A DNA stretch of 64,000 bases from the NCBI RefSeq assembly GCF_056712565.1, contig NZ_CM160072.1; one strand, 5' to 3'. Below are positions 2,853 through 42,906 of the stretch, piece by piece. The notes below the pieces were generated by a model that ran no database searches, was not told the DNA's origin, and saw only the letters and a program-made list of their open reading frames with translations. Position numbers and translations under genes: made by a program. How positions within the stretch are numbered: the first letter of the stretch is position 1; each line of letters opens with the position of its first letter.

Positions 2853-3668
2853 TCAAAGATTAAACGGCGGTTTATTTTCCAGCACCGCCTGAATCACATT
2901 CAGCGCGCCTTCATGATTATTATCATCGGTAGCGTAACGGGCGATTTGTTTAATGTTTTCCGCAGCATTGCTCATCGCAAAGGAATAACGCGCCATTTTC
3001 AGCATCTCCGCATCGTTACCGCTGTCGCCAATCGCTACCACATTTTGCGGTGACAGATCCCAGCGTTTCAGTAACCGCGAAATACCGTTTGCTTTATGTA
3101 GACCGGGAATAATCAAGTCGATAAAGCCAAAACCACTGGTGACGGGTTTCATAATGCCATCCAGCGCTATGTGCAGTTTGTCGATCACTAACGGGATTTG
3201 TTCATCCGGCAGGTTGAGCGAAAACTTGAACAGTACGTCGTCAATCTCCTGATAATCTTTTACAGGTTTCAGGCGATGGTAGTGTTTTGCCATCAGTGCG
3301 ACGAATGCTTCGGGGGCATTTTCGCTGACATATGCACTTTGCAGACCGCAGGCGACAAAATTGAGTTGCTTATCTTTTAGCAACTCGCCAATAACAATCC
3401 GCGATTCATGTCGGGTCAGTTCGCCGTGGAACAACTGCTTGCCATGTTCGTAAACCAGTGCGCCGTTTTCCGCGACAAAAGAGATCTCATCCTTTAGCTC
3501 AGGAAAGAACGAAATAAGCTGGTAATACTGATTACCGCTGGCGACAACGAACTCAATGCCGCGCTTTTTCAGTTCCTGATATTGCGCCATAAAACGTGGT
3601 TGGTTGTACGTTTTGGCGTCGTTAAGAAAAGTACCGTCCATGTCTGTGACGATAACTTTTACGCTCAT
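2853..3668 (-). CDS. ybiV: HAD-family Cof-type sugar phosphatase
   Basis: 271 aa; N-terminal DMDGTF HAD motif I; GDSGND motif; K-12 gene order. Confidence 0.9.
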
Positions 3669-3813
3669 AGGTGTGCTCCTGGCTCGAAAATGAAACCGTA
3701 ACAGTGTAATAACAATGTGACGCAGAGCACAAATTATATTTCGAATGAAAGCGAGGCTGAAATTGATGATGTGAATGATTTGGCCCGGCGACGACGACGC
3801 CGGGCTGAGGGGA

Positions 3814-6246
3814 TTACAGCATGTGTTCGGTACGGGCGATGATATCGTCCTGTGCGTCTGGAGAGAGCGCGGTGAAGAAGGCGGAATAACCCGCTACGCG
3901 TACCACCAGATCGCGGTATTGATCCGGATGTTTCTTCGCCTCCAGCAATGTTTCGCGGGAAACAATGTTGTACTGAATATGCCAGCCTTTATGCACTTCA
4001 AAGAAGGTACGCAGCAGGATCATCAGTTTCTGCTTGTCAGATTCATTCTCCAGCGTTGCCGGATTCAGTTTCTGGTTGAGCAGCACGCCGCCGAGAATTG
4101 CTGCCGTAGGCAGTTTACCCACCGAGCCAATGACCGCAGTAGGGCCGAGATGGTCAGTACCGGAGGCCGGACTAGCGCCTTCTGCCAGCGGGGTATGTGC
4201 TTTACGTCCGTCCGGCGTTGCCATAGTCTGCGCGCCAAACGGTACGTTAGCGGAGATAGACGATGTGCCCGCATAATAGTTGCCGCCAATCGGACCACGA
4301 CCGTAGCGCGGGTTATGGTACTGCTTCAGTTCGTCGATATAGGTCTGATAAGCGCGAGCCAGCAGCGTATCGACAGTATCATCGTCGTTGCCGTACTTCG
4401 GCGCACCGTTAATCAGCCGCTGACGCAGCTGCTCGTGAGTCAGGCCGTCGAAGTCATCCGCCAGTGCGGCAGCCAGCTGTTGCTGACCAATCGCGCCCTG
4501 TTCAAATACCAGTTTCTTCACTGCCGCCAGGCTGTTGCCGAGGTTAGCAATGCCGACCTGCAGGCCAGAAACCCAGTCATATTTCGCGCCGCCTTGCTTG
4601 ATACTTTTCGCTCGCTCAATACAGTCATCGACCAGCGCCGAGCAGAGAATATCGTGTACGTTCTCTTCCAGCATGGTATCGACGACATATTCGATTTCGA
4701 TTGATTTACGCGTGTAGTAACGGATTTGCGTATCCCATGCGTCCATTACTTCATCGAAGTTGTTGAAGTTACCCGCTGACAACGCTTTTTCTTGTGGCAG
4801 GAACACTTTGCCGCTGGTGGCATCACGACCGCCTTCCAGCGCCGCCAGCATCACGCGGGCGAAGTTGATAAAGCTCATGCCGGTACAGCGATAGCCCCAT
4901 TTGCCACCGACGGCGGTTTCGATACAACCAATCGCTGCATAGTCGTAAGCGTCCTGCGGTTCAATACCGAGTTTAATAAATTCCGGGATGACGATTTCGT
5001 CGTTGTTGAACGCCGGCATCCCGAAACCACAGCGGATCACCTGAACACAGGCATCGAGGAAATCGTTGCTCATTCCCGCGTGGTAGCGCACGCTGAGGTT
5101 AGGCTGAGTGGAACGCAGGCGACCGCAAGATTCGAGGATCGCATAAGAGAGTGGATTTACCGCGTCCATCGGTTGACCATCAACCAGATTTTGCCCGCCA
5201 ATGGTGACGTTCTGATACAGTGGACTTCCCGCAGAGGCTTTTGAGTGTGAGCCGGAGCGGATTTTGTTCACTTCCAGCAATTTCAACCAGCAGCTATGCA
5301 GCATCTCGATGGCGTGTTCGCGATCCAGTGTCTGGTTCAGTTCAACGTCGCGGCGATAGTATGGGTAGAGATACTGGTCCATACGACCAAACGATACCGA
5401 GTGACCGTTAGATTCGATCTGCAAAATCAACTGGATGAAGTAACACAGTTGCAGCGCCTGCCAGAAAGTCTGCGGCGGCTGGTGGGCGATAAGATCGCAG
5501 TTTTCTGCTATCGTCAGCAGTTCATCGCGACGGCTTTCGCGGGTTTCGGTCGCGGCCATTTCACGCGCCAGGGCAGCGAAACGTTCAATGTGTTCACTGA
5601 CTGCCACCATCACGATATCAATCGCTTTCAGGAATTGCTCGCCATGTAAATCTTCCAGTACCGTCAGATTGATGCGCGAGCGACGTTCCGCCACTTTCTC
5701 ACGCAGACCATCAAGCCCTTTTTCCAGCAGTAGCGGGAAATTCACCGCCAGGTGCGCATCGCCGGAGGTCATATTGCCCTCCGCTTTAATGATGCCGGTC
5801 GCCAGCAGACCTTTTTGCTCATCGGTAAACATGCCGTAGCAGCGATCCTGTACGGTCTGACCGCGCCACCACGGGCACACTTCATGCAGAACACGTTTGT
5901 TCTCCTCGCTCACCGCAAAACCAGCACCCGGACGATCTGCCAGATCATCAATCTCTTTTTCGATCCAGGAGACGGTATATTCCGGGAAGATCGGCGCGGC
6001 GCGAACTTCGCTTGCCTGGTTGCCAATGATCAACTCATCGTGCTTGATCCAGATGGTGCGATTCGCCAGGTGATGCGCCAGTGCCAGCGCGCGACGTACC
6101 GGGATTGGCTTATCGAGATGTTGTTGATACATCTCGGTATAGTGTTGTGCTCGTTCGGTACAGACCGGCGGTTTCACAATATGCACCAGCGCATTTTTGT
6201 GCGCTTTAATGCGGTCGCTGAGCGTATCCAGTTTTAGTGTTGTCAT
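3814..6246 (-). CDS. ybiW: glycyl-radical enzyme, pyruvate formate-lyase-like
   Basis: 810 aa; C-terminal glycyl radical motif region (RVAGYSAFF); PFL-like length and context. Confidence 0.93.
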
Positions 6247-35654: not shown

Positions 35655-35881
35655 TGGCTGATGCAATGGATCTCGTACAGCAGCGCGTTGAAGAAGAACG
35701 CCAGCGTCATATCCGTGCTGCCCGTGCCAAAACGCCGGGCGTGTCCCGCGTGCTTTGCATTGAGTGTGAAGCGCCAATTCCGCCAGCACGCCGCCGTGCC
35801 ATTCCAGGTGTGCAGCTTTGCATTACCTGTCAGGAAATCGCAGAGCTGAAAGGCAAACATTACAACGGAGGTGCTGTATGA
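35654..35881 (+). CDS. TraR/DksA-family C4 zinc-finger protein
   Basis: 75 aa; CIECEAPIP...CITCQ (CxxC-N17-CxxC). Confidence 0.7.
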   Translation: MADAMDLVQQRVEEERQRHIRAARAKTPGVSRVLCIECEAPIPPARRRAIPGVQLCITCQEIAELKGKHYNGGAV

Positions 35882-36735
35882 GCACCATCCTGAAATGGGC
35901 GGGAAATAAAACCGCCATTATGTCCGAACTGAAAAAGCATCTTCCTGCTGGCCCGCGACTGGTTGAACCTTTCGCGGGTTCCTGTGCAGTGATGATGGAG
36001 ACGGAGTACCCCAGCTATCTTGTTGCGGATATTAATCCTGATTTAATCAACCTCTATAAAAAGGTTGCTGCTGATTGTGAATCGTTTATATCTCGCGCCA
36101 GAGTTTTATTTGAGATCGCAAACAGGGAGGTGGCTTATTACAACATAAGGAAGGAGTTTAATTACTCAACTGAAATTACTGATTTCATGAAAGCGGTATA
36201 TTTCCTGTATCTCAATCGTCACGGTTACCGTGGTTTATGTCGCTATAACAAGAGCGGGCATTTCAACATTCCCTACGGCAATTATAAAAATCCGTATTTC
36301 CCTGAAAAAGAAATTCGCGCATTTGCAGAAAAAGCCCAGCGAGCAACGTTTATCTGCGCCAGCTTTGATGAAACGCTGGCGATGTTGAAGGCGGGGGATG
36401 TGGTGTATTGCGATCCACCGTATGACGGTACGTTTTCCGGCTATCACACTGACGGCTTCACTGAAGATGACCAGTATCACCTGGCATCTGTTCTTGAACA
36501 TCGGTCATCAGAAGGACATCCGGTCATTGTTTCTAACAGTGACACATCCCTGATCCGTTCGCTGTATCGCAATTTTACTCACCACTATATCAAGGTAAAA
36601 CGCATCATCGGTGTGGCAGCTGGCGAGGGTAAATCAGCAACAGAAATCATTGCTGTTTCCGGGCCGCGCTGCTGGGTGGGATTTGATTATTCGCGTGGCG
36701 TGGATAGTTCTGCCGTGTACGGAGTACGTGCATGA
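35878..36735 (+). CDS. Dam-like DNA adenine methyltransferase (orphan)
   Basis: 285 aa; LKWAGNK N-terminus, FAGS AdoMet motif, DPPY catalytic motif; start overlaps the TraR-like stop (ATGA). Confidence 0.9.
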
Positions 36736-39146
36736 GCCATGCCGATATGAACAACTGCTGCGGCTTTAACGAGGCTGCCGCAGCGTTCTCATGGAACAGC
36801 CCGAAAAAGGCCATTAACCCTTATCTGGACCCGGCGGAAGTTGCGCCGGTTTCTGCGCTTTCAAACCTGATCACTCTGTACGCTGCCGATAACGAGCAGG
36901 AACAGTTGCGCCGCGAGGCACTGAGTGATCAGGTCTGGGAGCGTTATTTTTTTAATGAATCACGTGATCCTGTCCAGCACGAAATGGAGCAGGATAAGCT
37001 CATTAGCCGGGCAAAGCTGGCGCATGAGCAGCAGCGTTTTAATCCGGATATGGTCATTCTGGCGGACGTCAACGCCCAGCCTTCCCATATCAGCAAGCCG
37101 CTGATGCAACGTATTGAATACTTCAGCAGCCTGGGCAGGCCAAAGGCTTATTCCCGCTATTTACGTGAGACGATTAAGCCATGTCTGGAACGACTGGAGC
37201 ATGTACGCGACAGCCAGCTATCTGCATCTTTTCGTTTTATGGCAAGCCATGTAGGGCTGGACGGCCTGCTGATTCTGCCTGAAATGAGTCAGGATCAGGT
37301 GAAACGCCTGTCTACCCTTGTCGCTGCGCATATGAGCATGTGCCTTGATGCAGCTTGTGGTGATTTGTATGCCACCGATGACGTTAAGCCAGAAGAAATC
37401 CGCAAGACATGGGAAAAGGTGGCAGCGGAAACCCTGCGTCTGGATGTCATCCCGCCTGCGTTTGAGCAACTCCGTCGGAAAAGAAACCGCCGTAAACCCG
37501 TGCCCTATGAACTCATTCCGGGTTCGCTGGCGCGTATGTTGTGCGCCGACTGGTGGTACCGGAAATTATGGAAAATGCGTTGCGAATGGCGGGAAGAGCA
37601 GTTGCGTGCTGTCTGCCTGGTCAGCAAAAAAGCATCTCCCTATGTCAGCTATGAAGCCGTGATGCATAAACGTGAGCAGCGCCGCAAGTCACTGGAGTTT
37701 TTCCGTTCTCATGAACTGGTGAACGAAGAGGGCGACACGCTGGATATGGAAGACGTGGTAAACGCCAGCAGCAGCAACCCGGCGCACCGCCGCAATGAGA
37801 TGATGGCCTGTGTTAAAGGTCTGGAGCTTATCGCGGAAATGCGCGGTGACTGCGCCGTTTTCTACACCATTACCTGTCCGTCACGTTTCCATTCCACGCT
37901 CAATAACGGCAGACCAAACCCAACCTGGACAAATGCGACGGTAAGACAAAGCAGCGATTATCTGGTCGGCATGTTTGCTGCATTTCGTAAGGCGATGCAC
38001 AAAGCCGGGTTGCGCTGGTATGGCGTGCGGGTGGCTGAGCCGCATCATGACGGTACAGTTCACTGGCACCTGTTGTGTTTTATGCGCAAAAAAGACCGCC
38101 GCGCCATTACTGCATTGTTGCGTAAGTTTGCCATCCGTGAAGACCGCGAGGAACTGGGTAATAACACTGGTCCACGCTTTAAATCTGAGCTGATAAACCC
38201 GCGCAAAGGAACGCCGACAAGCTACATCGCGAAATACATCAGTAAGAACATTGACGGGCGTGGTCTGGCTGGCGAGATCAGCAAGGAAACGGGTAAATCC
38301 CTGCGTGATAACGCTGAATACGTTAATGCCTGGGCGTCTCTGCATCGTGTTCAGCAATTCCGCTTCTTTGGTATTCCAGGGCGTCAGGCTTACCGTGAAC
38401 TGCGGTTGTTGGCTGGTCAGGCGGCAAGGCAGCAGGGTGACAAAAAAGCAGGTGCGCCGGTACTGGATAACCCGCGCCTTGATGCCATCCTGGCTGCTGC
38501 TGATGCTGGCTGTTTTGCCACCTACATTATGAGGCAGGGCGGCGTGCTGGTTCCTCGCAAATATCACTTGATCAGAACCGCTTATGAAATCAATGAAGAG
38601 CCGACCGCCTATGGCGATCACGGTATTCGTATTTATGGCATCTGGTCACCCATTGCAGAAGGCAAGATCTGCACTCATGCAGTGAAGTGGAAAATGGTTC
38701 GTAAAGCCGTTGACGTTCAGGAGGCGGCAGCCGACCAGGGCGCTTGCGCCCCTTGGACTCGTGGCAATAACTGTCCCCTTGCTGAAAATTTGAACCAACA
38801 AGGGAAAGACAAATCAGCTGATGGGGATACCAGGACGGACATTACCCGCATGGATGACAAGGAGTTGCACGATTACCTGCACAGTATGAGCAAAAAAGAG
38901 CGCCGGGAACTGGCTGCAAGGTTACGCCTGGTGAAACCGAAACGGCGTAAAGACTACAAACAGCGAATTATAGACCATCAGCGACAGCAGCTCGTCTATG
39001 AACTGAAGTCCAGAGGATTTAATGGCAGCGAGAAAGAGGTCGATTTACTCCTTCGCGGCGGCAGTATTCCGTCAGGAGCAGGCCTGCGTATCTTCTATCG
39101 GAACCAGCGTTTGCAGGAAGATGATAAGTGGCGAAACCTGTATTAA
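36732..39146 (+). CDS. A: replication initiation endonuclease (P2 gpA / 186 A family)
   Basis: 804 aa; HWHLLCF motif and tyrosine-rich active region (YIAKYISK). Confidence 0.88.
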
Positions 39147-39299: not shown

Positions 39300-39488
39300 A
39301 TGCAGGACTATTTTTTGGAGTCTTTGAAGCTCCAGCGCATTGATTTTTTTCTTAAGCTTGTAGCGGCTAGTGAGTGTAGTGATGAAGAGAAGGGGCTGGC
39401 TTTGCAGTGGGTTTCTGAACTGACAGATGAACTCATGGCAAAAATCAGAACCCACGAATACAACCGCTCAATGGATGTCATCAGCTGA
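39300..39488 (+). CDS. small SOS-operon protein (possible Tum-like antirepressor fragment)
   Basis: 62 aa; GGAGG RBS; directly downstream of the LexA box and upstream of the dinI-like gene. Confidence 0.4.
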   Translation: MQDYFLESLKLQRIDFFLKLVAASECSDEEKGLALQWVSELTDELMAKIRTHEYNRSMDVIS

Positions 39489-39498
39489 GGTGACCTTT

Positions 39499-39732
39499 AT
39501 GCGCATTGAAATAATGATCGATAAAGAGCAGAAGATTAGCCAGTCTACCCTGGACGCCCTTGAATCCGAGCTTTACCGCAATCTGCGCCCCCTGTATCCC
39601 AAAACGGTAATTCGCATCCGCAAAGGTAGCTCTAACGGTGTGGAACTGACCGGACTGCAACTGGACGAAGAAAGAAAACAAGTGATGAAGATTATGCAGA
39701 AGGTGTGGGAAGACGACAGCTGGCTGCATTAA
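39499..39732 (+). CDS. DinI-family protein
   Basis: 77 aa; MRIEIMIDKEQ...VWEDDSWLH resembles DinI (MRIEVTI...); GAGGTGA RBS. Confidence 0.75.
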   Translation: MRIEIMIDKEQKISQSTLDALESELYRNLRPLYPKTVIRIRKGSSNGVELTGLQLDEERKQVMKIMQKVWEDDSWLH

Positions 39733-39891: not shown

Positions 39892-40317
39892 CTACTTAAT
39901 TGAGTCCAGTAACAAGTTACAGTTACTCTCATTGTAGAGAGAACGAGCAATTAGTGTTACCTGCTTTCCATTCATTCCCGGCTTATCCCATAACACAGCT
40001 TCTTGCGACGCCACAAATTCAGCATAATCAATTATGCGTTGTTCGTGATCTGGTTCCTCATAGCCAAAGTATGAGAGCGCATCGTTGTAAGCGTGGTAAG
40101 CTGCTTTCTGTAATATCTTGATATCGGCTGTAGGTACTTGCTCCGTGTAGCTAGGATCTAATTGTGTGCTACTGCCATAGAATGCACATGAAAGGTAAGA
40201 TATTGATTTCTGTTGAGCTTTAGTTCCTTTCTCATAGTTTTTAGCTGTTACCGCCTGAACAGGGACGCTAACAAAGCTTGCAACCAGAATTAAAATTAAT
40301 ACGTAAAAGCTTTTCAT
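39892..40317 (-). CDS. secreted protein of unknown function (cargo)
   Basis: 141 aa; signal peptide MKSFYVLILILVASFVSVPVQA; lower-GC segment; opposite strand to flanking phage genes. Confidence 0.6.
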   Translation of the reverse strand: MKSFYVLILILVASFVSVPVQAVTAKNYEKGTKAQQKSISYLSCAFYGSSTQLDPSYTEQVPTADIKILQKAAYHAYNDALSYFGYEEPDHEQRIIDYAEFVASQEAVLWDKPGMNGKQVTLIARSLYNESNCNLLLDSIK

Positions 40318-40587
40318 TTTGACCTCAGCCGAAACGTTAGAGAGACTATCGAAATTTGTAAAACCCGTGGCGATTCAGTTTGAGATCCTCCCCCTTACAT
40401 GATTTTTAATCAAATATATGCTTTTGTAAGCATACCTGTTAACCGAATTATTTATTTTTAGAGATCTTCCGACATACTGATTATGCCCGCTGAGGAGTTC
40501 ACCTTGCGTAAAGTCCGATTCGCTTTACTCGTCTGTGCATGTCTATGCTGCATGAGATTGCATGATCGTTTGAGGATCGTTTTTGCT

Positions 40588-40617
40588 AAGGCCCGCCAGA
40601 ACTGGCGGGCTTTTGCG
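40588..40617 (+). terminator. rho-independent terminator
   Basis: GCCCGCCAG-aact-GGCGGGC followed by TTTTG. Confidence 0.5.
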
Positions 40618-40659
40618 TAGATCATGCTCCTGCATGAAAACCACTACATAAAGCGGGCA

Positions 40660-40678
40660 GGCGTGGCGGGGATACGAG
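40660..40678. other. cos-like site (P2/186-type cohesive end sequence)
   Basis: GGCGTGGCGGGGATACGAG; first 13 nt identical to the 186 cohesive end (GGCGTGGCGGGGAAAGCAT) as recalled from the literature. Confidence 0.45.
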
Positions 40679-40692
40679 CGCGCGCTTGCACC

Positions 40693-40721
40693 TTGATATT
40701 CACGGTTTGGTTAAGTATTGT
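40693..40721 (+). promoter_or_regulatory. putative sigma70 promoter for the protease operon
   Basis: TTGATA-N17-TATTGT about 40 bp upstream of the protease start. Confidence 0.3.
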
Positions 40722-40761
40722 CTTAGTCAGAGTCCATAACATATTACAGAATGGAGTTGTT

Positions 40762-41409
40762 ATGATTGGTCCTGAATATGTCGTAGTTGTTGGCGTGCTT
40801 AATGCAGGTTTGGTTAGTTTTTTAGGAACAGGTTTTTTTATTTCTAAGGATAAAATAATTACTTCCCGCCATGTTATTAATGGGTTTTCTTCTAACTTAG
40901 TTATTTCTCCATCTAATATAAATAACTTTAATAGTTATCAGGATACAAGTGTTGATAAATTTCAATGTATTGGAGTTGATGTTATTGATGAAGATCCAAT
41001 AAAAGACTTATGTGTGTTAAAAATTAAAAATGCACCTGTTTATGAACCTTGCCTAAAAATTGCTACTCTTGACGATGTTAATGTCGGTGAAGATGTGGGT
41101 ATTTTAGGTTTCCCACATTGTAATGAAAATAGAAAAGTATTGACATTTCAAACGGCAAAAATAGGTGCAAAAGTTTTACTTTCAAGCAGTAATATTCAAT
41201 CTAAACATGCCGTTATAAATATCCAAACCAGACCTGGTCAATCGGGATCGATTGTATTTAATTTAAAAAATGACTCGGTAATAGGCGTCTTGGTTGGCGC
41301 TTATGCAAATAATTCTGGAGGTTCTGTTTTGGTTGGAGGTATTAATCCAGCTGAACTACATCAGACAACTTATGCGGTTTCTGCAGAATATGTTAAGGAT
41401 ATGTTATGA
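40762..41409 (+). CDS. trypsin-like (S1/chymotrypsin-fold) serine protease, stand-alone domain
   Basis: 216 aa from MIGPEYVVVVG... (GGAG RBS); candidate triad His in GTGFFISKDKIITSRHV, Asp in DLCVLKI, Ser in RPGQSGSIVF; about 30% GC. Confidence 0.75.
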   Translation: MIGPEYVVVVGVLNAGLVSFLGTGFFISKDKIITSRHVINGFSSNLVISPSNINNFNSYQDTSVDKFQCIGVDVIDEDPIKDLCVLKIKNAPVYEPCLKIATLDDVNVGEDVGILGFPHCNENRKVLTFQTAKIGAKVLLSSSNIQSKHAVINIQTRPGQSGSIVFNLKNDSVIGVLVGAYANNSGGSVLVGGINPAELHQTTYAVSAEYVKDML

Positions 41410-41852
41410 TTGCTATACCAAATGAAGATGCTGAGTCTTGGTTGTCCACTTTAAAAACGTATCAATCTTCATCTGTCAGGAATTTTCTCGAAAATGGCGA
41501 TGAAGAAAAGGCTCTTGAGCTATGGCTAACTGCATCTGGCCCAAGTTCAGTTGCTCAATTTGGCGGTGATAATTCAAAAATGCCGGGAAGAAAAGCGTTT
41601 GTTGAGCAGTTTAAATTAGAGTTTAAGGCTTTTGTATGTGGAGGTGATAAATATGCAGAGGAGAGGGAATGTTTAGGAGCACTGACTGGTGATGTTAAAA
41701 CATACTTTGTAGGGGTGATCTCTTCGGCAATTGCGGGTTCTTTGGGGGCAACAGCAACATTTATTGCTCCAGCTGTAGTAATTATGTTGATAGCTGTCTC
41801 AAAAATGGGAATTAATGCTTGGTGTTCATTAGAGACAACGACAGAATCTTAG
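41406..41852 (+). CDS. small tail-anchored membrane protein, partner of the protease
   Basis: 148 aa; start overlaps protease stop (ATGA); C-terminal Gly/Ala-rich hydrophobic helix YFVGVISSAIAGSLGATATFIAPAVVIMLIAVS; AT-rich. Confidence 0.6.
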   Translation: MIAIPNEDAESWLSTLKTYQSSSVRNFLENGDEEKALELWLTASGPSSVAQFGGDNSKMPGRKAFVEQFKLEFKAFVCGGDKYAEERECLGALTGDVKTYFVGVISSAIAGSLGATATFIAPAVVIMLIAVSKMGINAWCSLETTTES

Positions 41853-41855
41853 GAA

Positions 41856-41880
41856 AACGCCCTTTTAGGGCGTTTTTTTA
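41856..41880 (+). terminator. rho-independent terminator after the protease operon
   Basis: AACGCCCT-ttta-AGGGCGTT followed by TTTTTTT; overlaps the portal gene stop on the other strand. Confidence 0.6.
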
Positions 41881-42906
41881 TAAATCATAATGCTGAAATC
41901 GGATAGTTTTCTCACCTAACCATTCATTAACTTCCATTATTCTTTTTTGGAGTGGAATTAGTTCATTTCTAACAAAAACCTTACTCGCCTTCTCCACATC
42001 CCCAAACCCTCCAACATTATTAGGCATTATCCCCATCATTTGTGGCGGCACACGATGCGCCGCCATCATGTCGTCCCGGCTCACGTTCTTGATATTCAGG
42101 AACTCATCCTTCGCCGCCACTTCTGACAACGGGATAATCTGAAGCCCGTCCTTTTTACCGTTAGGCGAGTACATAAACAGGTTACGGAAGTTACCAGGAC
42201 CTTTGGCACTTTTCATCGCGTTGCGGAGATTGTTCACATCCTCCTGATTCTGCGCGGCATCGGTCATATACATGATGAAGCCTGCATGGCTGCCGTTGAT
42301 GTAATACTTGCGGCGGAACAGCGTGGCGGACTTATTGAGCAGGGCTGACGGAATGGCAGAAAGATAGCCGGGCAGGCCGTAGATCTCCTGGTTGATGTCC
42401 GGTTCCATCAGATGAAAAATGCTGCCTTTCGTGAACTGATACGGCTGGGTTGTCATACCGTATTGCACAAACCAGTAGGTATCCAGGTCTAACCCGCGTC
42501 GGGTGTATTTTGCCAGCGCAGGATCAAGGGCGATAACTTCACCGAATCGGTTCGTGCGTTTCTCCAGGTAGGCGTTACCAAATACCAGATAGTCCTGCAC
42601 AAAACGCGAAAAAGCCTGCTGGCTGAGCAGCGGATGAGGGATATAGGTACTGGTCAGAATGTTGCACTTTACTGCAATCGGAGAACTGTGATGCACGGCG
42701 GCGCGGAAGGTGCGCGCCAGTCCGTCAAAGCTGACGGGCGGCTCATACCAGCGATCTGTCTGTACGCATTCCACATAGTCCAGCAGTTCACGGCGGTCCA
42801 GAACAGGAACGGGATCACCGAAGCTGAATGCTTCGGCTGAAGTCTGGCTTTTATGCTGGAGCTGGTTCGTCGACGCAGCGCGGTTCTTCTTACTCTTTCC
42901 CATCAA
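41878..42906 (-). CDS. Q: portal protein (P2 gpQ-like)
   Basis: 342 aa; size and position (upstream terminase on the same strand) match P2 Q. Confidence 0.88.
   Translation of the reverse strand: MMGKSKKNRAASTNQLQHKSQTSAEAFSFGDPVPVLDRRELLDYVECVQTDRWYEPPVSFDGLARTFRAAVHHSSPIAVKCNILTSTYIPHPLLSQQAFSRFVQDYLVFGNAYLEKRTNRFGEVIALDPALAKYTRRGLDLDTYWFVQYGMTTQPYQFTKGSIFHLMEPDINQEIYGLPGYLSAIPSALLNKSATLFRRKYYINGSHAGFIMYMTDAAQNQEDVNNLRNAMKSAKGPGNFRNLFMYSPNGKKDGLQIIPLSEVAAKDEFLNIKNVSRDDMMAAHRVPPQMMGIMPNNVGGFGDVEKASKVFVRNELIPLQKRIMEVNEWLGEKTIRFQHYDL

What the first reader, a model, noticed from the sequence alone, without database searches (positions are those of the whole stretch)
40693..41880. AT-rich two-gene cassette: bare trypsin-like protease coupled to a tail-anchored membrane protein, wedged between cos and the portal gene
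A 216-aa stand-alone chymotrypsin-fold protease (candidate His/Asp/Ser in SRHV, DLCVLK, GQSGS) is translationally coupled by an ATGA overlap to a 148-aa protein with a soluble N-terminal domain and a Gly/Ala-rich C-terminal membrane helix. The pair has its own putative promoter and terminator and is far more AT-rich than the flanking phage genes. It sits at the extreme left end of the phage genome, where P2-family phages normally have only about 100 bp before the portal stop, a position known to collect anti-phage cargo. I do not recognise this pairing as a named system. One hypothesis is an abortive-infection module in which the protease processes the membrane protein, or a phage target, to trigger membrane damage; a toxin–antitoxin or superinfection-exclusion role is also possible.
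Basis: partly seen in the sequence, partly recalled or inferred. Interest (0 to 1): 0.9.

Follow-up and report, generated by a model that had tools for sequence, protein, structure and literature searches.

The report
Protease plus membrane-protein cargo in P2 prophage
A P2-like prophage of E. coli carries, right next to its DNA-packaging site, a conserved pair of genes (a small serine protease and a small membrane-active protein) that databases already list as an untested anti-phage candidate and that most likely kills infected cells when the protease cuts its partner.

Summary
An AT-rich (30-40% GC against 52-57%) two-gene cassette lies between the P2-type cos site (40660-40678) and the portal gene stop (41878). 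Gene A (40762-41409) encodes a 215-aa trypsin-fold protease with an intact His37/Asp82/Ser161 triad. It overlaps by ATGA gene B (41406-41852, 148 aa).

The pair is not unnamed. Both proteins match PADLOC's PDC-M35A/B models over their full length; PDC-M35 is an untested "phage defence candidate". The exact arrangement is also listed, untested, among the P2 gpA-gpQ hotspot arrangements of Rousset et al. 2022.

New here:
- The pair is an obligate, co-diverging unit across at least five phyla, on prophages, plasmids and islands. Start/stop overlap was kept in all 23 distinct complete pairs extracted.
- B is a confidently modelled all-helical fold with no structural relatives. It has a hydrophobic helical hairpin rather than a single tail anchor.
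- B has a conserved T-A-P-F-G-G loop (VAQFGG in the window) that looks like a chymotrypsin-type site.

Best explanation (confidence 0.45): a minimal protease-gated membrane effector, analogous to but not homologous with EACC1, Pepco or gasdermin modules. The infection sensor is unknown. Nothing has been tested experimentally.

The parts
40660..40678 (.). cos cohesive-end sequence (GGCGTGGCGGGGATACGAG), the left end of the mature phage genome
   Evidence: It matches P2 cosL, GGCGAGGCGGGGAAAGCAC. It is invariant in the Klebsiella and Citrobacter loci. It lies within the block 40535-40687 that is conserved with 85 P2-like phage records.
40693..40721 (+). Promoter-like site TTGATA-17-TATTGT (putative and weak)
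   Evidence: Scan result: 9 of 12 matches, not above chance. The -35 element and the spacing are conserved in diverged orthologous loci.
40753..40756 (+). GGAG ribosome-binding site, 5 nt upstream of the ATG of gene A
   Evidence: Read from the sequence. Invariant across 6 loci.
40762..41409 (+). Gene A: stand-alone 215-aa trypsin-fold serine protease (PDC-M35A). Catalytic codons: His37 at 40870-40872, Asp82 at 41005-41007, Ser161 at 41242-41244.
   Evidence: PADLOC PDC-M35A 4.3e-94 over the full length. Pfam Trypsin_2 1.7e-15. PDB SplE 7e-09, with the catalytic motifs aligned. Triad invariant in 23 orthologues. The PGAP-called start maps to 40762.
41406..41409 (+). ATGA stop/start overlap (translational coupling of A and B)
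   Evidence: Read from the sequence. A 4-nt or 1-nt overlap is kept at the junction of all 23 distinct complete pairs, from loci in several phyla.
41406..41852 (+). Gene B: 148-aa all-helical protein (PDC-M35B) with no Pfam domain
   Evidence: PADLOC PDC-M35B 4.3e-58. No Pfam match even at E<=10. AF2 pLDDT 89.6 and pTM 0.84. A profile search finds 739 clusters at E<=1e-3, nearly all of the 150 listed being 137-168 aa.
41550..41567 (+). Codons for B residues 49-54 (VAQFGG). This conserved loop is the candidate protease docking and cleavage site, with Phe52/Gly53 the inferred scissile bond.
   Evidence: The family consensus is T-A-P-F-G-G: F52 in 130 of 145 sequences, G53 in 132 of 145. An indel-prone linker follows. 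The loop has low pLDDT in the monomer model. Residues 49-51 become a beta-strand in the fused A-B model. The cleavage itself is inferred, not shown.
41697..41807 (+). Codons for B residues 98-134: hydrophobic helical hairpin rich in small residues (Gly114 and Pro122 nearly invariant)
   Evidence: Hydropathy peak at residues 97-142. Helices 98-113 and 117-134. Conservation counts.
41850..41880 (.). Stem-loop of 14 bp flanked by an A-run and a T-run. It is a likely bidirectional terminator for the cassette and for the convergent P-Q operon (the position of P2 tQ).
   Evidence: Fold of -17.5 kcal/mol, z = -5.97. Conserved in orthologous loci and positionally equivalent to P2 tQ.
41878..42903 (-). 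Portal gene Q: conserved flank, not part of the cassette
   Evidence: Annotated as phage portal protein in identical genomes.

Best explanation
The cassette is a self-contained, horizontally mobile two-gene module carried as lysogen-expressed cargo in the cos-proximal defence hotspot of a P2/186-like prophage.

**Proposed mechanism.** Protease A and protein B are made in fixed proportion by translational coupling and form a complex. B is a latent membrane-active effector. Its N-terminal helices (about residues 1-45) keep a hydrophobic helical hairpin (98-134) packed in a compact fold. On infection by a competing phage, A cuts B in the conserved exposed loop, most likely after Phe52 (...T/V-A-P/Q-F | G-G...). 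The C-terminal fragment then inserts into or assembles in the inner membrane, collapses membrane integrity, and aborts the infection.

**What is shown.**
- The genes, the intact catalytic triad, the coupling and the position.
- The mobility and co-divergence of the pair.
- The compact helical model with a hydrophobic hairpin, and the conserved loop.

**What is inferred.**
- Complex formation, cleavage of B by A and the cleavage site.
- Membrane damage and the anti-phage outcome.

**What is unknown.** The infection signal. Neither protein has a recognisable sensor domain.
For: **Location.**
- The cassette lies between cos and gpQ, inside the gpA-gpQ hotspot shown to hold old/tin and many defence systems.
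- Another phage carries a TIR gene in the same cos-Q slot.
- The cassette is in 12 of the 1,247 E. coli genomes that carry this type of portal gene, so it is accessory.

**Defence association.**
- It is PADLOC PDC-M35, selected because copies are embedded in BREX, DISARM or type I RM loci.
- In Shewanella it sits next to a CAP12/PCTIR TIR protein on an integrase island.
- On C. perfringens plasmids it sits next to an AAA ATPase plus HNH pair.

**The protease.** Its next-best PADLOC matches are the protease domains of retron type XI RT-protease, LmuA, HamA and Avs1b. In HamA (HamMAB) the protease domain has been shown to act with a neighbouring MBL nuclease effector.

**Obligate pairing.**
- In every locus with a strong B match and upstream DNA available, A lies directly upstream. 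Stop/start overlap is kept in all 23 distinct complete pairs.
- The A and B distance matrices correlate at r = 0.87, with 0 of 2000 permutations reaching that value.

**Protein B.**
- It is a compact helical fold (pTM 0.84) with a hydrophobic hairpin and a poorly ordered, conserved F-G-G loop followed by a variable-length linker.
- The loop consensus A-P-F resembles the classical chymotrypsin substrate AAPF (own knowledge).

**Complex model.** A linker-fused A-B model reaches pTM 0.80, and B residues 49-51 turn into a beta-strand, as bound substrates do.

**Precedent.** Small non-enzymatic partners of defence proteases (Pepco, EACC1) were shown to be pore-formers unleashed by a single cleavage (PMC12642450).
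Against: - There are no experimental data for this family. PDC systems are explicitly untested, and the arrangement is absent from Rousset's table of tested systems.
- In the characterised Pepco, EACC1 and MBL modules the protease is fused to or accompanied by a sensor (Avs, Hachiman and others). Here it is a bare 215-aa domain, so how activity would be withheld until infection is unexplained.
- B has no sequence or fold similarity to any known pore-former, holin, gasdermin, Pepco or EACC1.
- The fused model returned no coordinates. Contact between the B loop and Ser161 is therefore unverified, and a substrate-like loop could equally be an inhibitor loop.
- Position 51 (P2 if cleavage follows Phe52) is variable, Pro in about half of the sequences and Gln here, so the proposed site is only a guess.
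- Several genomic contexts (Pantoea, Ancylomarina) show no neighbouring defence genes.
Confidence: 0.45

Rival explanations
1. Roles reversed. The protease A is the effector or toxin and cleaves host or phage proteins. B is its membrane-anchored pseudo-substrate inhibitor, regulator or sensor. Infection, or loss of labile B, frees the protease. The precedent is ietAS, where a serine protease is the toxin.
For: - The pair has tight stoichiometric coupling and co-divergence, as in toxin-antitoxin pairs.
- The B loop docks as a beta-strand in the fused model, which is what canonical protease inhibitors also do.
- ietAS shows that a serine-protease toxin with a protein antitoxin can be an anti-phage system.
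Against: - An inhibitor would not need a strongly conserved hydrophobic hairpin with nearly invariant Gly114, Pro122 and Cys140.
- In the characterised trypsin-effector modules the neighbouring small protein or enzyme is the substrate-effector, not the inhibitor.
Confidence: 0.2
2. An addiction or stabilisation module (toxin-antitoxin) that mainly serves to keep the prophage, plasmid or island in the cell. B would be a small membrane toxin that A continuously degrades. There would be no direct role in sensing phages.
For: - It is a two-gene, overlapping, compact cassette found on plasmids, islands and prophages.
- It is often solitary, with no defence neighbours.
Against: - The gpA-gpQ slot of P2-like phages is enriched for systems with demonstrated anti-phage activity.
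- The family was picked up through embedding in RM, BREX or DISARM loci.
- Many toxin-antitoxin modules act in defence anyway, so this rival overlaps with the main explanation rather than excluding it.
Confidence: 0.15
3. A superinfection-exclusion or lysogenic-conversion function at the inner membrane. B would anchor the protease at the membrane, where it degrades ejected proteins of incoming phages or modifies a host envelope component. The cell would not be killed.
For: - It is prophage-borne, probably lysogen-expressed cargo with a membrane-associated partner.
- P2-type hotspot cargo includes non-abortive exclusion genes and even virulence genes such as cdt.
Against: - Neither protein has a signal peptide, and the hairpin would leave both ends of B in the cytoplasm (inference).
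- The pair occurs in Gram-positive, Gram-negative and cyanobacterial hosts with very different envelopes and phages. This fits a host-independent suicide effector better than a receptor-specific or entry-specific block.
Confidence: 0.1
4. A phage morphogenesis or lysis function of the P2-like phage itself, such as a head-maturation protease with its substrate or an accessory holin. The first reader named this as the refuting case.
For: The only support is proximity to the portal and terminase genes.
Against: - It is absent from about 99% of E. coli genomes with this type of portal and from all 50,697 sequenced phage genomes.
- It is present on plasmids and chromosomal islands of unrelated phyla.
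- The prophage has its own GPO scaffold/protease and its own holin and lysis genes.
- B has no holin-like fold match.
Confidence: 0.02

Closest known systems
PADLOC-DB candidate system PDC-M35 (Payne et al. 2024 preprint, 'guilt-by-embedding'; cassette CAS_00131, FAM_02427>>FAM_02508)
   Same: It is the same family. Both window proteins match the PDC-M35A and PDC-M35B models over their full length (4e-94 and 4e-58), in the same order and on the same strand.
   Different: Nothing differs in sequence terms. PDC-M35 is only a catalogue entry: no phenotype, no mechanism and no domain description for B.
P2 gpA-gpQ (cos-proximal) hotspot cargo: old/tin, the AC1 TIR plus transmembrane system, and others (Rousset et al. 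2022)
   Same: - Same genomic slot and the same logic of lysogen-expressed, AT-rich, swappable cargo.
- The identical protein accessions appear as one listed arrangement in Table S5.
   Different: - It was not among the systems cloned and tested there.
- It lies on the cos-to-Q side, the left genome end. old and tin lie on the A-to-cos side, which this prophage fills with a different gene encoding a 141-aa secreted protein.
EACC1-caspase and Pepco (Trypco)-trypsin protease-effector modules (Evans et al. 2025, PMC12642450)
   Same: - A small non-enzymatic protein is encoded next to, and co-evolves with, a defence-type protease.
- The proposed logic is the same: a single cleavage in a loop removes an autoinhibitory part and releases a membrane-permeabilising fragment.
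   Different: - There is no homology. B is all-helical with a hydrophobic hairpin, whereas Pepco is a beta-barrel and EACC1 assembles through beta-strands.
- Pfam finds no Trypco or other domain in B.
- Gene order is protease first.
- The protease has no fused sensor (Avs, STAND, DGR and the like).
Bacterial gasdermin plus protease operons
   Same: Protease-gated pore formation as an abortive-infection effector; compact operons on mobile elements.
   Different: - B (148 aa, helical) is unrelated in size and fold to gasdermins.
Trypsin-MBL nuclease pairs ('Canu', HamMAB, Avs, retron and Lamassu variants; Tuck et al. 2026 and related work)
   Same: After PDC-M35A itself, the PADLOC models that A matches best are those of this protease class (RT-Protease_XI 3e-17, LmuA 7e-13, HamA 2e-06, Avs1b 6e-03). 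These act by cleaving a neighbouring effector.
   Different: - The partner is not an MBL nuclease.
- There is no helicase, RT, SMC or STAND component nearby.
ietAS (serine protease toxin plus AAA ATPase antitoxin)
   Same: A two-gene system with a serine protease, originally a plasmid-stabilising toxin-antitoxin and later shown to be anti-phage.
   Different: - IetS is a subtilisin-type protease (own knowledge), not a trypsin-fold one.
- Its partner is an ATPase, not a small hydrophobic helical protein.

Membership tests
PADLOC PDC-M35 (candidate) | Protein matching the PDC-M35A HMM | tested here: met
   E = 4.3e-94; residues 6-216 of the 216-residue query (40759-41406, one residue longer than the 215-aa protein) against profile positions 6-216 of 216.
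PADLOC PDC-M35 (candidate) | Adjacent same-strand protein matching a PDC-M35B HMM | tested here: met
   E = 4.3e-58; residues 3-145 against profile positions 6-145 of 148. The genes overlap by 4 nt.
P2-like gpA-gpQ defence hotspot cargo (Rousset 2022) | Located between replication gene A and portal gene Q, next to cos, in a P2-like prophage | tested here: met
   gpA at 36732-39146, cos at 40660-40678, Q at 41878-42903. The same accessions are listed in Table S5.
P2-like gpA-gpQ defence hotspot cargo (Rousset 2022) | Variable between otherwise related prophages | tested here: met
   The cassette is in 12 genomes, whereas related portal genes are in 1,247 of 5,426 genomes.
P2-like gpA-gpQ defence hotspot cargo (Rousset 2022) | Demonstrated anti-phage activity | not testable with these tools
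   It is not in the table of tested systems. No paper mentions PDC-M35 or the accessions.
Protease-activated pore-forming effector modules (Pepco/Trypco, EACC1, gasdermin) | Small non-enzymatic protein obligately linked to, and co-evolving with, a protease gene | tested here: met
   A lies directly upstream in every locus with a strong B match and upstream DNA, with overlap in 23 of 23 distinct complete pairs. Distance correlation r = 0.87.
Protease-activated pore-forming effector modules (Pepco/Trypco, EACC1, gasdermin) | Effector homologous to Pepco/Trypco1/2, EACC1 or gasdermin | tested here: not met
   No Pfam hit at E<=10. The fold is all-helical. No structural match outside its own family.
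Protease-activated pore-forming effector modules (Pepco/Trypco, EACC1, gasdermin) | Protease fused to or accompanied by an infection-sensor domain | tested here: not met
   A is 214-219 aa in all 23 orthologues, protease domain only. No conserved third gene.
Protease-activated pore-forming effector modules (Pepco/Trypco, EACC1, gasdermin) | Site-specific cleavage of the effector releases a membrane-permeabilising fragment | not testable with these tools
   The evidence is only indirect: the conserved exposed F-G-G loop, and the fused model with pTM 0.80 in which the loop becomes a beta-strand.
S1/chymotrypsin-fold serine protease (Pfam Trypsin_2) | Trypsin_2 domain with His, Asp and Ser in the canonical order and motifs | tested here: met
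   PF13365 at 1.7e-15. Alignment to SplE and V8 protease. Triad invariant.
Retron type XI / Lamassu / Hachiman / Avs1 protease variants | Protease domain joined to an RT, LmuB-type SMC, HamB helicase or STAND ATPase | tested here: not met
   The matches cover only the protease domain. No such genes flank the pair.
Phage head-maturation protease or lysis cassette | Conserved among relatives of the phage and needed for its life cycle | tested here: not met
   Absent from about 99% of related prophages and from all sequenced phage genomes. The prophage has separate GPO, holin and lysis genes.
Type II-like toxin-antitoxin module | One product toxic, neutralised by the co-expressed partner | not testable with these tools
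   The architecture is compatible (overlapping small genes on mobile elements), but there are no toxicity data.

The most novel reading that the evidence does not exclude
PDC-M35 would be a minimal, sensor-less, protease-gated cell-suicide switch with an effector of a previously unseen fold. A soluble helical bundle would hide a hydrophobic hairpin, in the manner of colicin or Bcl-2 pore domains but unrelated to them, and a dedicated 215-aa chymotrypsin-like protease would arm it by a cut at a conserved A-P-F|G-G loop. The A-B complex itself, for example the N-terminal cap of B, would act as the infection sensor. That would make this the smallest known complete protease-effector immune module and a new class of bacterial pore-former.
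Probability: 0.3. Interest if true: 0.75.

Novelty: new variant of a known kind. Interest (0 to 1): 0.55.

Why it matters
If the mechanism holds, it extends the recently established rule that proteolysis unleashes a latent death effector. The extension would be to a new helical effector fold and to a stripped-down two-gene format with no separate sensor. That raises a directly testable question: how is a bare protease kept silent until infection?

The E. coli copy is short (1.2 kb) and probably carries its own promoter and terminator. It sits in a P2-like prophage of ExPEC/APEC O1:K1:H7-type strains, so it is easy to test in a native host. It also bears on phage-phage and phage-satellite competition, and on phage therapy against these strains.

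If it proves inactive against phages, it is still a widespread mobile protease-membrane protein pair (739 clusters at 50% identity at E<=1e-3) of unknown function.

Tried and rejected
**Searches for protein B that found nothing.**
- PDB sequence search: best E = 1.3.
- Pfam at E<=10 and NCBIfam.
- PHROGs gave only a marginal match to an unknown-function family, E = 0.002.
- Foldseek against AFDB50 returned only uncharacterised members of its own family.
- Foldseek against viral BFVD: no match at E<=0.001.

**Sequence searches of phage genomes.** blastn of the cassette and tblastn of B against 50,697 phage genomes gave no match.

**Literature.** Searches for 'PDC-M35' and for the two RefSeq accessions gave no paper. 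Searches for trypsin plus transmembrane anti-phage systems found only analogous modules: Pepco, EACC1 and trypsin-MBL.

**Technical failure.** The search for related loci with the 145-sequence alignment failed because it was too diverse. It was repeated with 14 sequences.

**A loose end.** A distant B-like protein in a Granulicella MAG (L030) lacks the trypsin gene. It follows a 339-aa ORF containing an HExxH motif, but that ORF has no Pfam match, so a 'B pairs with other proteases' argument could not be made.

**Ideas rejected.**
- The longer 261-aa ORF from 40624 as the real protease start: it crosses cos and is not the start called by PGAP.
- A morphogenesis or lysis role: ruled out by distribution.
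- Membership of the retron XI, Lamassu, Hachiman or Avs families: only the protease domain is shared.

**Limit of the complex model.** The linker-fused AlphaFold model gave confidence values only, without coordinates. The A-B interface could not be inspected.
Full report
**1. What is in the sequence**

Between the replication gene A (36732-39146) and the portal gene Q (41878-42903, minus strand) the window holds several small genes. The finding covers two plus-strand ORFs.
- Gene A: ATG at 40762, stop at 41407-41409, 215 aa.
- Gene B: 41406-41852, 148 aa.
- The two overlap in ATGA.
- GGAG lies 5 nt upstream of the ATG of A. PGAP calls the same start in identical genomes.
- GC content falls to 0.30-0.40 across the cassette, against 0.52-0.57 in gpA, Q and P.

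The sequence GGCGTGGCGGGGATACGAG at 40660-40678 corresponds to P2 cosL, GGCGAGGCGGGGAAAGCAC. Similarity to 85 P2-like phage records stops at about 40687. The cassette therefore starts within about 30 bp of the left cohesive end and fills the space up to the Q stop: 1,218 bp here, against 186 bp in P2.

A 14-bp stem-loop at 41850-41880 (-17.5 kcal/mol, z = -6) is conserved in orthologous loci. It occupies the place of P2's tQ terminator, so it probably terminates both convergent transcripts.

The promoter-like TTGATA-17-TATTGT at 40693-40721 is weak and not above chance on its own. Its -35 element and spacing are kept in diverged copies.

**2. Identity of the two proteins**

A is a chymotrypsin-fold serine protease.
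- Pfam Trypsin_2 at 1.7e-15.
- Best solved relatives are the staphylococcal Spl and V8 proteases. The motifs TSRHV, DLCVLK and GQSGS align to their catalytic His, Asp and Ser.
- The triad is invariant in 23 orthologues, all 214-219 aa.

B has no Pfam, NCBIfam or PDB sequence relative.

Both proteins match PADLOC-DB models PDC-M35A (4e-94) and PDC-M35B (4e-58) over their full length.
- PDC systems come from Payne et al., who picked cassettes found embedded in BREX, DISARM or type I RM loci. They state that the 145 PDC candidates are untested.
- Their supplementary table lists the cassette as CAS_00131, value 97, 'Assign as candidate PDC-M35'.

The same protein accessions (WP_001350593 and WP_000560513), flanked by the same neighbours, appear as one arrangement in Table S5 of Rousset et al. 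2022. That paper defined the gpA-gpQ cos-proximal hotspot of P2-like phages. The arrangement does not occur in their table of cloned and tested systems. So the pairing is catalogued twice, but nobody has characterised it.

**3. Distribution and linkage**

In E. coli:
- The identical cassette is in 12 of 5,426 complete genomes, always beside the portal gene.
- Related portal genes occur in 1,247 genomes.
- The cassette is therefore rare accessory cargo of what looks like one prophage lineage. Hosts include ExPEC and APEC O1:K1:H7 strains.

Diverged copies (61-86% identity for B) sit in the same slot of Klebsiella and Citrobacter prophages.

An exhaustive profile search with B found 739 clusters at 50% identity with E<=1e-3. 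Nearly all of the 150 best listed are 137-168 aa.

Loci recovered from genomes, viral contigs and plasmids span several groups.
- Gammaproteobacteria and Betaproteobacteria
- Bacteroidota
- Cyanobacteria
- Actinomycetota
- Bacillota

Linkage of the two genes:
- In every locus with a strong B match and available upstream DNA, an A orthologue lies immediately upstream.
- All 23 distinct complete pairs extracted, none of them from Bacillota, keep a 4-nt or 1-nt stop/start overlap.
- In the Bacillota plasmid copies a gap of 1-2 nt replaces the overlap.
- Pairwise distances of A and B correlate at r = 0.87, and 0 of 2000 permutations reach that value.

There is no conserved third gene. Neighbours are integrases, transposases and recombinases. 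Some neighbours are defence-type genes: a CAP12/PCTIR TIR protein in Shewanella, and an AAA ATPase plus HNH pair on C. perfringens cpb2 plasmids. In other loci there is nothing notable nearby. No B homologue exists in 50,697 sequenced phage genomes.

**4. Anatomy of B**

With a 145-sequence alignment AlphaFold2 gives a confident model: pLDDT 89.6, pTM 0.84.
- Eight helices: 9-13, 18-29, 33-42, 61-77, 81-91, 98-113, 117-134 and 136-140.
- The only poorly ordered part is residues 43-60.
- The hydrophobic region (about 97-142) is a helix-turn-helix hairpin rich in small residues, not one long tail anchor.
- Gly114, Pro122, Ala138 and Cys140 are nearly invariant, as are Cys78, Tyr83 and Glu72 in the preceding helices.
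- The high pTM argues that the hairpin is packed against the amphipathic helices rather than projecting freely.

No solved, predicted-viral or AFDB structure outside the family resembles it.

The disordered loop carries the most conserved motif of the N-terminal half. The consensus is T-A-P-F-G-G, with Phe52 in 130 of 145 sequences and Gly53 in 132 of 145. It reads VAQFGG in the window. A linker that varies in length follows directly. An aromatic residue preceded by Ala-Pro and followed by Gly-Gly is close to the textbook chymotrypsin substrate AAPF (own knowledge).

**5. Does A act on B?**

This could only be approached indirectly. A model of A joined to B by a 30-residue Gly/Ser linker, built with 20 paired sequences, reached pTM 0.80 even though the linker was disordered. 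That value is hard to obtain unless the two halves are placed confidently relative to each other. In this model B residues 49-51, just before Phe52, switch from coil to a beta-strand, as substrates or canonical inhibitors do in the cleft of trypsin-fold enzymes. The tool returns no coordinates, so contact with Ser161 is unverified.

**6. Mechanism**

The best-supported reading combines these points with recent literature.

After its own PADLOC family, the models A matches best are the protease domains of the retron XI RT-protease, LmuA, HamA and Avs1b. That protease class, as studied in trypsin-MBL modules such as HamMAB, acts by cleaving an adjacent effector. Evans et al. 2025 showed that small non-enzymatic partners of defence proteases are pore-formers armed by a single cleavage. 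Pepco is a beta-barrel and EACC1 loses an autoinhibitory N-terminal fragment.

By analogy:
- B is a latent membrane effector.
- A cuts it in the F-G-G loop.
- The hairpin-bearing C-terminal fragment damages the inner membrane.
- The infection is aborted.

I put this at 0.45. The large gap is sensing. In the characterised modules the protease is fused to a sensor, while here it is bare, so either the A-B complex senses the trigger or the regulation is different.

Rivals:
- The protease is the toxin and B is its membrane-bound pseudo-substrate inhibitor (0.2).
- A maintenance toxin-antitoxin module (0.15).
- Non-lethal exclusion or lysogenic conversion at the membrane (0.1).
- A morphogenesis or lysis role (0.02), effectively excluded by distribution.

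**7. Comparison and novelty**

As a mechanism it would be a new variant of the protease-effector kind. It shares the logic but has a non-homologous helical effector of unknown fold, a protease-first gene order and no sensor domain. It fails the homology and sensor criteria for membership of the Pepco, EACC1, gasdermin or trypsin-MBL families.

What this analysis adds to the catalogue entries:
- obligate coupling and co-divergence across phyla
- a confident fold model
- the hairpin
- the candidate cleavage loop
- the exact placement on the cos-to-Q side of the hotspot

**8. Verdict**

This is a real, well-delimited, horizontally acquired two-gene module. It is very probably a conflict system and plausibly a protease-gated membrane suicide switch. 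It is already catalogued but experimentally untouched. Interest is moderate (0.55): a specialist would not be surprised that it exists, but it is an unusually compact and tractable case with an unexplained trigger and an orphan effector fold.

Noticed in passing
window 49966-51924 (+): A 652-aa ORF lies inside the late (tail) region of the same prophage, at what I recall as the P2 'orf30' moron position. It matches PADLOC AriA (1e-21, residues 10-367), Old (2e-11, residues 319-487), ATPase-Toprim and PtuA/GajA models. It is therefore an OLD-family ABC ATPase plus TOPRIM-like protein, probably a second defence cargo gene.
   Followed up: partly
window 39892-40317 (-): This AT-rich gene encodes a 141-aa protein with an N-terminal signal peptide (MKSFYVLILILVASFVSVPVQA...). 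It lies on the other (A-to-cos, right-end) side of cos, the slot where P2 has old/tin. It matches phrog_7437 over its full length (4e-99, function unknown) and has no PADLOC hit. A promoter-like site (10 of 12 matches) lies upstream at 40442-40413. It is not linked to the protease pair in the Klebsiella or Citrobacter copies.
   Followed up: partly
window 39300-39732 (+): Two small conserved genes follow gpA. One is a 62-aa protein (phrog_698, unknown function). The other is a DinI-like RecA-filament-binding protein (phrog_189, 1e-30). Both are conserved in the related prophages, so they are backbone rather than cargo.
   Followed up: partly
window 35818-36735 (+): A Dam-family orphan adenine methyltransferase lies in the early operon just upstream of gpA (TIGR00571 at 3e-95; PADLOC orphan MTase at 2e-110). 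A related dog-isolate prophage additionally carries a PAPS-reductase-domain gene at this spot.
   Followed up: no
L010 (Escherichia phage 500465-1, NC_049342) 3223-4525: Another P2-family phage has a TIR-domain gene and a hypothetical gene in exactly the same cos-to-portal slot. This side of cos is therefore a recurrent insertion point for different cargo.
   Followed up: partly
L030 4958-6447 (Granulicella MAG) and L031 5812-6315 (Hyphomicrobiales MAG): Distant B-like proteins (202 and 167 aa) keep the C-x4-Y and G-[VI]-x-A-[WF]-C motifs but have no adjacent trypsin-like gene. In L030 the upstream 339-aa ORF contains an HExxH motif but has no Pfam match. Whether B-like proteins pair with other proteases, or can act alone, is unresolved.
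   Followed up: partly
L040 (C. perfringens plasmid NZ_CP134266) 1711-5432: On roughly 48-kb mobilisable cpb2 (beta2-toxin) plasmids the protease-B pair lies directly downstream of an AAA ATPase plus HNH endonuclease pair and next to a recombinase. This looks like a small defence island on a toxin plasmid.
   Followed up: no
B residues Cys78 and Cys140 (window 41637-41639 and 41823-41825): Two cysteines are conserved in more than 95% of 145 diverse B homologues. One is in the helical core and one is just after the hydrophobic hairpin. The protein is presumed cytoplasmic. Whether they are in contact (metal site, redox switch or packing) could not be checked without model coordinates.
   Followed up: no
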